From: a virus
Lineage: Duplodnaviria; Heunggongvirae; Uroviricota; Caudoviricetes
DNA length: 12,369 nt
Strand: one strand, 5' to 3'
Virus record (IMG/VR): IMGVR_UViG_2923323785_000002
Span: 1-12,369 of that record
Made by a program: the position numbers. Of the stretch, positions 9,001 to 12,000 are shown in pieces (position 1 is the stretch's first letter; each line of letters opens with the position of its first letter).

Positions 9001-12000
9001 TATGCGGTGCGAATGAAGAGTGGGTACTCTGTTATATCCAAGTGTGCTAATGATTTTACTAAAAATGCCGCATATTGGCTTGAGTCATCGGATTATAACA
9101 GTGTATATACTATTGATGAGTGTGGTTTTGAGAACTCAGGTTCAGATGCTGTTGTTAAAGTTTCTGGGCGTATTGCACTCACATGGTCTAACTGTATGGC
9201 CGGTAACATTGAATCTCAACAGTCACCTGTTCCTACAAATTTACTCTGGGTTCAGGGCGACAGCAACGGTTCTCAGTTTACACTGAGCAATATTAGATTC
9301 CTCAATACTGGTCGTCGCATATGGGATTTAGGGACTAATAGCCGCTTCACCATTAACCGTGTCAACCATGCCTCAGGTGACTTAGCGGATGTATGGGGGG
9401 ATGGGGCGCTTGTCAATGAAAACACCTATAACACCACCAAGTATATGTCCTCCGCCTACCCCAATGGTTTTCAGATTGGACCAACAGGACTTAGCGACTG
9501 GTTCTCATCAGGCGGAAACACTGGCTCATTACCAAACGACCAAAGATTTTTGAGGTACTCCAAGACGATTACCAGAGCATCTGGTCAGAGTTTTGGAACA
9601 ACAACAATAACGTTACCATTTCAGTTGAGTGTCGATGGTGAGGGGTATCAGGTTATTGTCACTCCGAGAGAGTATCCAAATAACGTCCCTACGTATCAAT
9701 GGCATTGCGCAAGTTATAATCATACATCCACTGATGTTCAGATTATAGCTGGTCGTGGTGATGGTAACACAGCATGGTCAACAGTTATTGTTGACATATT
9801 AATAATTGGAAAAGCGATAAACTTTTAATTGCTCAAAGGCATGAGGTCTGTCATCCAATCATCAATCTAACGATGGCTTGTTGTGGCTGATGAGATAAAA
9901 ATGAGACACACAACGATTTTGCATTGACTCGCAAGGCTTTGTGCTCTTCGATAGTGGTTAAGGTGGATCACTCCACCTTTTCATCAAGCCAGTCTGCCCA
10001 CCACTGCATCATTTCTCTGCGCTTATCAAGATACTGAGCATGGTTGTAAATTCCACGCACAGATCCGCCGTTGGCATGTGCCAGTTGCACTTCAATAGCG
10101 TCAGCAGGCCATTCGTGCTCGTTCATAATCGTGCTGAATTCATGCCTGAATCCGTGACCGCTTTCCAGACCCTCATAGCCGATTTGTTTGATCACAAGCA
10201 ATACCGCGTTCTCGCAGATTGGCTTCTTCTTATCGTTGCGCCCGGCAAAAACAAACTCTGATACTGGTTTGGTGATTGAGCTTAGCGTAGTGAGAAGTTC
10301 AACTACCTGGTCTGACATAGGAACCACATGAATTTTGCGTCCCTTCATCACATTGGCGTCGATGGTGATAATCCTGTTTTCAAAATCGACGTTCTTCCAT
10401 TGCATGGAACGAAGCTCTTTCGTTCTTAGGGCTGTATAGCGTAAAACTTTGGTCGCAATGAGCGATACGATGCTTCCTGAAAATGTTGCCAGTGCTTTGT
10501 TAAATGCCGGGATCTGGTCTGCAGGAAGAAACGGGAAGTTTTTCTTGCGGTATCCCTTCATGGCGTCAGCAAGGTCAGGTGCCGGGTTATATTTAGCCCT
10601 ACCAGTGACAATAGCGTAACGGAAAACCTCGCCGCATCTTCTGCGGGCTTTATTTGCTCGCTCCATTGCACCGCGATCTTCAAATCTGCGGATTACTTCC
10701 AGCAGTTGCATCGGCTCAATATCCTGAATTTCAAGGCCGCCGATGATAGGTAAAATGTCGTCATCAAACATTTTTGCAAGTTCAGTCGCATACCCTACTG
10801 ACCATACTTGCTTCTTGTGCTCGTACCATTCCTTGTAAATCGCACTAAAGGAATTGTTGTTAGACGAAGCCTTTTTCGCCTTTACCGGATCGATGCCAAC
10901 CGAGATGTCTTTCCTCGCAGTCCATGCCTTATCCCTTGCCTCCTGCAAAGTCATTAGCGGATATTTTCCTACGGTCAGGATTTTCTCCTTACCGTCAATC
11001 TTGTAGCGAAGCTGCCATACCTTTTTCCCGGATACAGGGACATAAAGGTACAGGCCATTACCATCGAGAAGGCGGTATGGTTTTTCTTTCGGCTTTGCTG
11101 CTTCAATCTGCTTAACAGTGAGCATGGGTAAAAATCCGGTGGGTAAAATTATTTTATCCACTTTTTACCCGTCATGGAGTGCGGCTGTCAACGATCTGAC
11201 GCGAACCATTACGAACTGTGAATCTACGGAAGGCTTGATATTCAGGGGATTTTGCGGACTGGTACGGATTGGAACGAACTGATAAATGGTGTCCCCTGCA
11301 GGAATCGAACCTGCAATTAGCCCTTAGGAGGGGCTCGTTATATCCATTTAACTAAGAGGACAATGCGGCATGAGTATACCCGCTAATGGACTGCGGGGTA
11401 AGTACGCTGCCGCTCGATTGCTTAAACCCTCGCCATTTATGCTGGGTTTTTATCATTTTTCTTAATGTTTTCCGCACGTTCTGCTTTTTGGCGTGCTTCT
11501 GCTTTACGCTTGTTGCTCATGTCGTTACGAATCTGTGCATGACTCATTAACGCGAAGATAAAGGTGCCGCCGCAGATGTTCCCCGCTAAAGTAGGTAGTG
11601 CGAAGGGCCAGATGAAATCGCTCCAGTGCAGCGTGCCGTTAAACACCAGATAGAGGATTTCAACAGAACCGACAACGATGTGGGTGGTGTCACCCAGTGC
11701 AATAAGCCAGGTCATCAATATAATCACCACAATCTTTGCCGCACCCGCAGCAGGAAACATCCAAACCATAGTGGCGATCAGCCAGCCGGAAATGATCGCG
11801 TTGGCAAACATCTCGCTGGGGGTGTTCTTCATCACATCCATGCCGATTTTGACAAATGCATCGCGAGTTTCTTCATTGAAGATAGGCATATATTCAAATG
11901 CCCATGCAGCAATACCTGTCCCGAGAATATTACCCAGCAGCACGACGCCCCATAATCGCATAAGTAAGCCGACGTTGCTCATTGTCGGTTTTTGCATGAC

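What the first reader, a model, noticed from the sequence alone, without database searches (positions are those of the whole stretch)
11126..11286. Repeated motifs in attL overlapping the integrase start
GGGTAAAA occurs three times (two direct, one inverted) directly over the int start codon and upstream region, and matching TATTTTACCC copies occur at the attR end (1762-1783). A second motif, AACGA(A/T)CTG, occurs at 11190-11198, 11210-11218 and 11273-11281. This fits arm-type and RDF binding sites overlapping the int promoter, as in KplE1 autoregulation.
Basis: partly seen in the sequence, partly recalled or inferred. Interest (0 to 1): 0.45.

Follow-up and report, generated by a model that had tools for sequence, protein, structure and literature searches.

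The report
Known KplE1-type integrase and excisionase sites
The repeated motifs are the already mapped binding sites for the prophage integrase IntS and its excision factor TorI at the argW attachment site, which also shut down the integrase promoter, so this is a correct reading of a well-studied system and not a discovery.

Summary
The window holds a 9.6-kb prophage remnant in tRNA-Arg(CCU) argW. Its recombination module is about 97% identical in DNA to E. coli K-12 KplE1/CPS-53. IntS matches at 383/385 residues and TorI at 66/66. GGGTAAAA occurs 8 times against 0.43 expected, and 5 copies lie in the two att arms. These are the IntS arm-type sites: P'1-P'3 at attL and two at attR. The second motif is the TorI site, with cores GTTCG, GATCG and GTCCG. 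There are five copies, all in one orientation and in 10-bp phase. The middle copy it listed is TACGAACTG, one mismatch from its pattern. From the -35 box to the ATG the sequence is identical to K-12. There, Panis et al. (2010) mapped the transcription start and showed about 5-fold repression of intS by IntS and by TorI, the latter through I4 and I5. The sites are conserved in Klebsiella and Erwinia phages and in prophages of many enterobacterial genera. More distant relatives keep the layout but use other motif words (GGGCAT, TTACC). Small possible additions are a degenerate fourth arm-like copy over the transcription start and a sixth phased TorI-like position.

The parts
11287..11361 (-). 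tRNA-Arg(CCU) gene argW, the integration target; its 3' end is rebuilt by the prophage core
   Evidence: ARAGORN; Rfam tRNA, 63.4 bits; annotated as tRNA-Arg in matching E. coli genomes
11287..11301 (.). attL copy of the 15-nt core duplication TGGTGTCCCCTGCAG (16 nt in K-12)
   Evidence: Read directly. Matches the K-12 core CTGCAGGGGACACCAT
11275..11279 (-).
   Evidence: Maps to the published block I1;2, 2464409-2464436. GTTCG is invariant in the 8-sequence attP alignment; 3 of 5 columns are invariant and the mean majority fraction is 0.96 across 17 relatives
11265..11269 (-). Candidate degenerate TorI-like position 'I1.5' (ATCCG), exactly 10 bp from both I1 and I2; inferred, and not among the five published sites
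   Evidence: [AC]TCCG in most relatives and a perfect GTTCG in Proteus L111. The published 12-nt gap between I1 and I2 equals 2+8+2, enough room for one more 8-nt box
11255..11259 (-).
   Evidence: GT[CT]CG in relatives
11212..11216 (-).
   Evidence: Maps to block I3;4;5, 2464472-2464499
11202..11206 (-).
   Evidence: In K-12, mutating I4 abolished TorI repression (ratio 1.0)
11192..11196 (-).
   Evidence: In K-12, mutating I5 gave a repression ratio of 1.7
11186..11191 (-). -35 hexamer TTGACA of the intS promoter
   Evidence: Identical to K-12; published -35; invariant in all 17 relatives
11162..11170 (-). IntS arm-type site P'1 (GGGTAAAAA), overlapping the -10 hexamer TAAAAA (11162-11167)
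   Evidence: 7 of 8 columns invariant
11155..11156 (-). Transcription start sites of intS, by homology to the K-12 primer-extension mapping
   Evidence: MG1655 positions 2464536/7 (T, A) convert to 11156/11155, where the minus strand reads T and A
11152..11159 (-). Degenerate fourth arm-like copy GGATAAAA, 11 bp from P'1. It forms an 11-nt palindrome with P'2 and covers the transcription start. Inferred; I could not check whether the literature counts it
   Evidence: Inverted repeat 11139-11149/11151-11161, 91% complementary. The same position carries a perfect GGGTAAA in nine relatives from five genera (Pantoea, Edwardsiella, Erwinia, Serratia and Proteus, plus Mixta) and GAGTAAA in five others. 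It is kept at about -34/-35 from the ATG in both motif groups
11141..11148 (+). IntS arm-type site P'2 (GGGTAAAA, inverted relative to P'1), inside the 5' untranslated region
   Evidence: 6 of 8 columns invariant
11126..11133 (+). IntS arm-type site P'3 (GGGTAAAA), abutting the intS ATG
   Evidence: offset -7/-8 from the ATG in relatives
9968..11125 (-). intS, a tyrosine integrase with an N-terminal arm-DNA-binding domain
   Evidence: 383/385 identical to K-12 IntS. Pfam Arm-DNA-bind_3 (residues 2-86), Phage_int_M and Phage_integrase
1690..1704 (.). attR copy of the 15-nt core
1722..1734 (-). IHF-like match AATCAATCCCCTG (one mismatch) in the P arm; tentative
   Evidence: not significant on its own. 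The surrounding CAA.CCCCTGC is conserved in 8 attP sequences. The published attR primer is named attR-IHF2, and IHF is used in the published excision assays
1764..1771 (-). IntS arm-type site in the P arm (GGGTAAAA)
   Evidence: CG[GA]GTAAAA in Klebsiella and Erwinia phage attP
1776..1783 (-). IntS arm-type site in the P arm (GGGTAAAA); its GGG TAA doubles as the last Gly codon and the stop codon of torI
   Evidence: ATGGGTAAA is invariant in 8 attP sequences. TorI ends in ...NG in all relatives
1778..1978 (-). torI, the recombination directionality factor (excisionase)
   Evidence: 66/66 identical to K-12 TorI; 82-88% identical in Klebsiella and Erwinia phages

Best explanation
The region is the P' arm of attL of a KplE1/HK620/Sf6-type recombination module integrated in argW. 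The GGGTAAAA copies are arm-type sites bound by the N-terminal domain of the IntS integrase. The P' arm has three clear copies plus one degenerate copy, and the P arm at attR has two. The GTTCG-type pentamers are TorI excisionase sites. There are five, in direct orientation and 10-bp phase, forming two blocks. With IHF, the proteins bound at these sites assemble the intasome that excises or integrates the prophage. The intS promoter lies inside this arm. Its -35 box abuts I5, its -10 box lies inside P'1, and transcription starts 30-31 nt before the ATG. The same proteins therefore repress intS: IntS does so at the -10 and start region, and TorI does so at I4 and I5 next to the -35 box. Integrase is thus held at a low, narrow level, and excision depends on TorI supply. 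What is shown here is the sequence identity to the characterised K-12 sites, the non-random occurrence of the motifs, and their conservation. Binding, repression and recombination are taken from the K-12 literature and inferred for this copy.
For: attL and attR are nearly identical to K-12 KplE1, and every site core and both promoter hexamers are unchanged. IntS is 383/385 identical and TorI 66/66. IntS carries Pfam Arm-DNA-bind_3. The published map and experiments are in PMC2951348. They comprise five TorI sites, P' sites containing TAAA, P'1 over the -10 box, a primer-extension start site, about 5-fold repression by IntS and by TorI, and loss of TorI repression in I4 and I5 mutants. My coordinate conversion reproduces the reported start bases. 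PMC3509656 reports five cooperative TorI sites on attL and defines 220-bp attL and 135-bp attR substrates that bracket exactly these motifs. PMC7498355 states independently that KplE1 RDF sites overlap the integrase promoter. GGGTAAAA occurs 8 times against 0.43 expected, and five same-strand TorI cores fall within 100 nt. The attP sites of Klebsiella and Erwinia phages, 73-77% identical, keep all the sites. Across 17 relatives, site columns have a mean majority fraction of 0.93 with 38/63 invariant. Non-site columns have 0.67 with 6/98 invariant (p = 5e-18). Relatives whose Int is 53-64% identical keep the same offsets but use different words, GGGCAT and TTACC. That is the pattern expected when binding sites co-evolve with their proteins.
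Against: No binding or expression was measured for this particular copy. The simple sigma-70 consensus scan did not list the published promoter, because its -10 hexamer TAAAAA lacks the final T. In K-12, single mutations of P'2 or P'3 did not relieve IntS repression, and P'1 could not be separated from the -10 box. Which arm site mediates autorepression is therefore not fully resolved even in the literature. IntS here differs from K-12 at two residues in the C-terminal part. The conservation test used site positions chosen with knowledge of the motifs, and the sequences are related to each other, so its p-value is generous.
Confidence: 0.93

Rival explanations
1. The repeats are chance or compositional features of an AT-rich promoter region and are not protein-binding sites.
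For: The 9-mer AACGAWCTG with one mismatch is not enriched across the window (7 against 5.1 expected). Three GGGTAAAA copies lie outside att, and one of them is simply Walker A codons.
Against: GGGTAAAA is about 19-fold over expectation and none of 200 shuffles reached the observed count. Five TorI cores fall in one orientation at exact 10-bp phase. Site columns are far more conserved than spacers across genera. Published mutagenesis shows function.
Confidence: 0.01
2. The motifs are binding sites, but for other proteins than proposed. For example, GGGTAAAA could be an operator for a phage repressor or host factor, or the GTTCG repeats could be bound by IntS or IHF rather than TorI.
For: I ran no binding assay. 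The two primary mapping papers (JBC 2007, Virology 2010) are not in the held library. An IHF-like match lies inside the P' arm at 11155-11167.
Against: In K-12, changing the GTTCG-type cores at I4 or I5 abolishes repression specifically by TorI, and the P' sites are described as IntS arm-type sites from earlier mapping. GGGTAAAA occurs on both arms of attP, as arm-type sites should. The arm word changes together with the Int arm-binding domain, which carries the fixed differences N23G and Q38R between the two motif groups. KplE1 encodes no repressor.
Confidence: 0.03
3. The sites serve recombination only, and in this element the overlap with the promoter has no regulatory consequence.
For: Single P'2 or P'3 mutations had no effect on repression in K-12. 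This element has a different cargo and flank from K-12, and nothing was measured here.
Against: The sequence from I5 and the -35 box to the ATG is identical to K-12, where about 5-fold repression by each protein was measured from both chromosome and plasmid. TorI is identical and IntS nearly so. The -35 box next to I5 and the -10 box within P'1 are invariant across genera.
Confidence: 0.04

Closest known systems
KplE1 (CPS-53) prophage recombination module of E. coli K-12 (IntS, TorI, attL, attR); Panis et al., J Biol Chem 2007, Virology 2010, PLoS Genet 2010
   Same: Same attB (argW), same core, and the same order and sequence of TorI sites, promoter hexamers and arm-type sites. TorI is identical and IntS is 99.5% identical. 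The mechanism is the same: assembly of the intasome plus dual repression of intS.
   Different: The prophage body differs. Here it is a mosaic remnant related to P22 and lambda, carrying a replication protein O, a DnaB-like gene, Arc, an antirepressor and a tailspike. K-12 carries yfdG-yfdT instead. The left flank is a LacY-family transporter, not dsdC. The core duplication is 15 nt rather than 16. There are six base changes in arm spacers and two IntS substitutions.
attP of phages HK620, Sf6 and CUS-3 (Lederbergvirus) and related argW-integrating phages
   Same: 95-97% identical across the whole attP. int and the RDF gene flank attP in the same way. The HK620 record annotates the same repeats and an int promoter at the same place.
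   Different: Those are intact phages with attP; here the site is split into attL and attR in a defective prophage.
Satellite phage P4 int regulation (Int plus Vis)
   Same: The integrase promoter overlaps att, and int is repressed by both the integrase and its RDF (stated in PMC2951348, and PMC7498355). IntS belongs to the P4-like integrases with an Arm-DNA-bind_3 domain.
   Different: According to PMC2951348, Vis was proposed to act on int mRNA, whereas TorI acts on DNA next to the -35 box. The site sequences are unrelated.
Phage lambda Int/Xis/IHF attachment site
   Same: The integrase is heterobivalent, with arm-type sites on both arms. RDF sites are direct repeats one helical turn apart, and IHF acts as an accessory factor.
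   Different: In lambda, int is transcribed from pI or pL together with xis, and its promoter is not inside att. The number, orientation and arm location of the sites differ. The RDF sites here lie on the int-proximal arm.

Membership tests
KplE1/HK620/Sf6-type IntS-TorI recombination module | Integration into the 3' end of tRNA-Arg(CCU) argW, with a duplicated core of about 16 nt, CTGCAGGGGACACCA(T) | tested here: met
   tRNA-Arg(CCT) at 11287-11361. The 15-nt repeat lies at 1690-1704 and 11287-11301; the core is as published.
KplE1/HK620/Sf6-type IntS-TorI recombination module | The IntS integrase gene lies next to attL, is transcribed away from the tRNA, and has an arm-binding N-domain | tested here: met
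   383/385 identical to K-12 IntS; Arm-DNA-bind_3, Phage_int_M and Phage_integrase domains.
KplE1/HK620/Sf6-type IntS-TorI recombination module | The TorI RDF gene lies at the opposite prophage end, next to attR | tested here: met
   The ORF at 1778-1978 (-) is 66/66 identical to K-12 TorI.
KplE1/HK620/Sf6-type IntS-TorI recombination module | Five TorI sites (GTTCG/GATCG/GTCCG) in two blocks on attL | tested here: met
   Cores at 11275, 11255, 11212, 11202 and 11192 are unchanged from K-12.
KplE1/HK620/Sf6-type IntS-TorI recombination module | IntS arm-type sites containing TAAA on the P' arm (with P'1 over the -10 box) and on the P arm | tested here: met
   GGGTAAAA at 11163 (-), 11141 (+), 11126 (+), 1764 (-) and 1776 (-), identical to K-12.
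KplE1/HK620/Sf6-type IntS-TorI recombination module | The intS promoter lies inside attL (-35 TTGACA, -10 TAAAAA, start 30-31 nt before the ATG) | tested here: met
   The sequence is identical to the mapped K-12 promoter, and the start bases agree after coordinate conversion. The generic consensus scan did not list this promoter.
KplE1/HK620/Sf6-type IntS-TorI recombination module | IntS and TorI physically bind these sites, repress intS and catalyse excision | not testable with these tools
   Taken from the K-12 experiments. Confirming it here needs EMSA or footprints, reporter assays and excision assays on this copy.
Lambda-type heterobivalent integrase att site | Arm-type sites on both arms, plus RDF sites as helically phased direct repeats | tested here: met
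   Arm sites on both arms. TorI cores are spaced 10, 10, 43 and 20 bp apart, all in one orientation.
Lambda-type heterobivalent integrase att site | An IHF site in an arm | tested here: inconclusive
   One IHF-like match with one mismatch at 1722-1734, in a conserved block. It is not significant by itself.
Lambda-type heterobivalent integrase att site | int is expressed from promoters outside att and co-transcribed with xis on induction | tested here: not met
   int and the RDF gene sit at opposite prophage ends, and the int promoter is inside attL. The site works like lambda in intasome logic but not in regulation.

The most novel reading that the evidence does not exclude
The P' arm may hold more sites than the five TorI sites and the three P' sites I recall. 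One is a degenerate fourth arm-type position (GGATAAAA, 11152-11159) that covers the transcription start. The other is a sixth TorI position ('I1.5', ATCCG, 11265-11269) that would make each TorI block a three-protomer filament, like lambda Xis at X1-X1.5-X2. Both positions are conserved across genera. In addition, relatives that use the same argW attB keep the site layout but swap the words: GGGTAAA to GGGCAT for Int, and GTTCG to TTACC for the RDF. Only two fixed changes in the Int arm domain (N23G, Q38R) separate the groups. This gives a natural map of the determinants of arm-site specificity.
Probability: 0.3. Interest if true: 0.3.

Novelty: already known. Interest (0 to 1): 0.1.

Why it matters
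The finding matters little as a discovery. The sites, the proteins, the promoter overlap and the dual repression were all published for the K-12 copy between 2007 and 2012. About a third of complete E. coli genomes (1861 of 5426) carry most of the same 551-nt intS-attL-argW-yfdC stretch. The result is useful as annotation: this remnant keeps a complete and probably functional excision module, so it may still be mobilisable. The cross-genus comparison adds modest value by showing that the architecture persists while the binding words change.

Tried and rejected
- **Promoter scan:** the sigma-70 consensus scan of 10900-11450 did not list the published intS promoter and offered a different weak match. 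I rejected it as evidence because the mapped -10 hexamer TAAAAA fails the scan's final-T rule.
- **Whole-window enrichment of the 9-mer:** AACGAWCTG with one mismatch was not significant. I replaced it with the pentamer cluster test.
- **Viral-contig scan with the integrase alignment:** it returned only copies at least 99% identical, which are useless for footprinting. The genome scan and a distant blastn against phages supplied the diversity.
- **Primary mapping papers:** J Biol Chem 2007 (PMID 17545146) and Virology 2010 (PMID 20494389) are not held. I therefore could not check the published count and naming of the P and P' sites, or the IHF site.
- **Rfam:** it finds only the tRNA in this region.
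- **IHF consensus:** it is not enriched.
- **The GTG start at 11161:** the ORF list gives it, but I rejected it because the mapped transcription start lies downstream of it.
- **The 54-codon ORF at 11118-11282 (+):** I rejected it as coding. Relatives have single-base indels there, and conservation follows the 10-bp site pattern rather than codons.
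Full report
**What is in the window**

The window holds yfdC (11437-12369, minus strand) and tRNA-Arg(CCU) argW (11287-11361, minus strand). Next comes a 385-codon integrase gene whose ATG is at 11125-11123 on the minus strand. At the far end lies a 66-codon ORF (1778-1978, minus strand), followed by a LacY-family transporter gene. A 15-nt repeat, TGGTGTCCCCTGCAG, sits at 1690-1704 and 11287-11301, so the element is 9.6 kb long.

The integrase is 383/385 identical to K-12 IntS, and the small protein is 66/66 identical to TorI. The attL arm differs from K-12 KplE1 at six spacer positions only. From the -35 box to the ATG the two are identical. The attR arm is equally close.

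The element is not K-12 KplE1 itself. No complete E. coli genome covers more than 47% of the window in one place. The cargo is a mosaic related to P22 and lambda: a replication protein O, a DnaB-like gene, Arc, a P22-type antirepressor and a tailspike. The recombination module alone is very common. 1861 of 5426 complete E. coli genomes hold at least 80% of the 551-nt intS-attL-argW-yfdC stretch.

**Checking the observation**

The window has 8 matches against 0.43 expected, and none of 200 shuffles reached 8. One of the three copies outside att is the Walker A GMGKT codons of the DnaB-like gene.

For the second motif, 11190-11198 and 11273-11281 match exactly. The copy at 11210-11218 reads TACGAACTG, one mismatch from the stated pattern. 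The 9-mer as written is not enriched across the window.

The repeated unit is really the pentamer CG[AG][AT]C, which reads G[TA][TC]CG on the int strand.
- It occurs five times in 11186-11286, always in the same orientation.
- The copies start at 11192, 11202, 11212, 11255 and 11275.
- This is the densest such cluster in the window, with a Poisson estimate of about 2e-3.

**What the motifs are**

Panis et al. 2010 (PMC2951348) describe the K-12 attL as follows.
- There are five TorI sites in two blocks. I1 and I2 are separated by 12 nt, and I3, I4 and I5 by 2 nt each. Their cores are GTTCG, GATCG and GTCCG.
- The IntS arm-type sites (P') all contain TAAA, and P'1 overlaps the -10 box.
- The promoter has -35 TTGACA and -10 TAaAAa. 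Primer extension placed the starts at MG1655 positions 2464536 and 2464537.

The paper's construct limits (-223 to +64, equal to 2464344-2464630) put the A of the ATG at 2464567. Window position therefore equals 2475692 minus the MG1655 coordinate. The conversion gives:
- Starts at 11156 and 11155, where the minus strand reads T and A, as reported.
- Block I1;2 at 11283-11256.
- Block I3;4;5 at 11220-11193, exactly over the five pentamers.
- The -35 box at 11186-11191, and the -10 box at 11162-11167 inside P'1 (11162-11170).

PMC3509656 adds that TorI binds the five attL sites cooperatively. It also shows that a 220-bp attL and a 135-bp attR suffice for excision in vitro, and the primers that define those fragments bracket exactly these motifs. 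PMC7498355 notes independently that KplE1 RDF sites overlap the integrase promoter. IntS carries the Pfam Arm-DNA-bind_3 domain at residues 2-86.

**How it works**

This account is taken from the K-12 experiments and inferred for this copy. IntS bound at arm and core sites, TorI bound at its phased repeats, and IHF together build the excisive intasome. Because the intS promoter lies inside the arm, the same proteins also repress it.
- IntS represses intS about 5-fold.
- TorI represses it about 5-fold through I4 and I5, next to the -35 box.
- Single P'2 or P'3 mutations had no effect, and P'1 could not be separated from the -10 box.
- Excision in vitro is efficient only in a narrow IntS range of 0.8-1.2 uM, and excess IntS inhibits excision in vivo. 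This explains the tight control and leaves TorI supply as the trigger.

A distant blastn with the reconstructed attP found HK620, Sf6 and relatives at 95-97% identity. It also found Klebsiella phages Chronis and RCIP0114 and Erwinia phages 49 and Midgardsormr38 at 73-77%. Their Int and RDF proteins are 75-88% identical to IntS and TorI. In the 8-way attP alignment the conserved blocks are the two P-arm sites, the core, I1-I5, the -35 box and P'1-P'3.

A scan of one genome per species gave 80 loci whose Int is 46-99% identical to IntS. Seventeen P' arms, 63-96% identical to the window, were aligned:

| Columns | Mean majority fraction | Invariant columns |
|---|---|---|
| Site columns | 0.93 | 38 of 63 |
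| Spacer columns | 0.67 | 6 of 98 |

The Mann-Whitney p-value is 5e-18. It is generous, because I chose the site positions knowing the motifs and the sequences are related to each other.

An unbiased k-mer count shows how the words change with Int identity:

| Int identity to IntS | Top repeated word just before the ATG | Top direct repeat further upstream |
|---|---|---|
| 66% or more | GGGTAA, 3-4 copies | GTTCG, 3-5 copies |
| 53-64% | ATGCCC/GGGCAT | TTACC |
| About 50% | GGGGGC, GGGGTA or GGGGCA | not assessed |

A few loci depart from these bands. L111 (62% identical) carries GGGTAA and GTTCG, and L112 (68%) falls with the GGGCAT group.

The offsets from the ATG are nearly the same in the first two groups. 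Forward copies lie near -46 and -35, and reverse copies near -22 and -8. The layout is fixed while the words co-vary with the proteins. This is strong comparative support for protein-binding sites.

- **A fourth arm-like copy.** GGATAAAA lies on the minus strand at 11152-11159, 11 bp from P'1. It forms an 11-nt near-palindrome with P'2 and covers the transcription start. In the 17-sequence alignment the same position carries a perfect GGGTAAA in nine relatives from five genera (Pantoea, Edwardsiella, Erwinia, Serratia and Proteus, plus Mixta) and GAGTAAA in five others.
- **A possible sixth TorI position.** ATCCG at 11265-11269 lies exactly 10 bp from both I1 and I2. It is [AC]TCCG in most relatives and GTTCG in Proteus. 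The published 12-nt gap equals 2+8+2. This resembles lambda Xis X1.5, a comparison made from my own knowledge.
- **Status of both.** I could not check whether either is already described, because the two primary mapping papers are not held.
- **A shared codon.** The P-arm site at 1776-1783 encodes the last Gly codon and the stop codon of torI. attP therefore fills exactly the gap between the RDF stop codon and the int start codon.

**Verdict**

The feature is already known and experimentally characterised in a copy that is identical from the -35 box to the ATG, so interest is low.

Noticed in passing
window 11152-11159 (minus strand): A degenerate fourth arm-like copy, GGATAAAA, lies 11 bp from P'1. 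It forms an 11-nt near-palindrome with P'2 (11139-11149/11151-11161) and covers the intS transcription start. In the 17-sequence alignment this position is a perfect GGGTAAA in nine relatives from five genera (Pantoea, Edwardsiella, Erwinia, Serratia and Proteus, plus Mixta), and it sits at the same offset in the GGGCAT-type relatives.
   Followed up: partly
window 11265-11269 (minus strand): ATCCG lies exactly 10 bp from both TorI sites I1 and I2. It is conserved as [AC]TCCG in most relatives and is GTTCG in Proteus hauseri (L111). It may be a sixth, non-consensus TorI position that would make both blocks three phased sites.
   Followed up: partly
window 1776-1783: The attR arm-type site GGGTAAAA supplies the last Gly codon (GGG) and the stop codon (TAA) of torI. 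At the other end P'3 abuts the intS ATG. The whole attP therefore fits exactly between the RDF stop codon and the int start codon, and this holds in the Klebsiella and Erwinia phages too.
   Followed up: partly
L110, L114-L119, L121, L122 (upstream of position 1501): Integrases 53-64% identical to IntS, also inserted in tRNA-Arg, keep the same layout. They have 2-3 RDF-like repeats near the core, 2-3 next to the -35 box, and arm repeats near -47, -35, -22 and -8. The words differ: GGGCAT for the arm sites, and [AG]TTACC or TGAACC for the RDF-like sites. The Int arm domains of the two groups differ by the fixed changes N23G and Q38R.
   Followed up: partly
window 1695-1702 and 1721-1728: A perfect 8-nt inverted repeat, TCCCCTGC/GCAGGGGA, has arms 18 nt apart. 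It links the attR core to a P-arm block (CAA.CCCCTGC) that is conserved in all 8 attP sequences and overlaps an IHF-like match at 1722-1734. Its role was not determined.
   Followed up: no
L106 (Xenorhabdus hominickii), about 70-150 nt upstream of int: The spacer between the two TorI-type blocks holds about eight tandem copies of the 9-nt unit CCCTTAAAT. This lengthens the arm by about 60 nt relative to all other relatives.
   Followed up: no
window 1-1689 and 1705-9967: The prophage body and left flank differ from K-12 KplE1. The cargo comprises a phage replication protein O, a DnaB-like gene, Arc, a P22-type antirepressor and a tailspike with a head-binding domain. The left neighbour is a LacY-family transporter rather than dsdC. 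No complete E. coli genome in the collection covers more than 47% of the window in one place.
   Followed up: partly
window 3853-3868: GGGTAAAA is followed directly by ACCGAACTG, so both motif words lie side by side inside the DnaB-like gene. The sequence encodes the Walker A motif GMGKTEL and looks coincidental.
   Followed up: yes
L099 (Mixta mediterraneensis), upstream of position 1501: The TorI-type and arm-type sites are all present upstream of int, but no tRNA or CTGCAGGGG core precedes them. The element may use a different attachment site, or the sequence may be an unintegrated attP.
   Followed up: no
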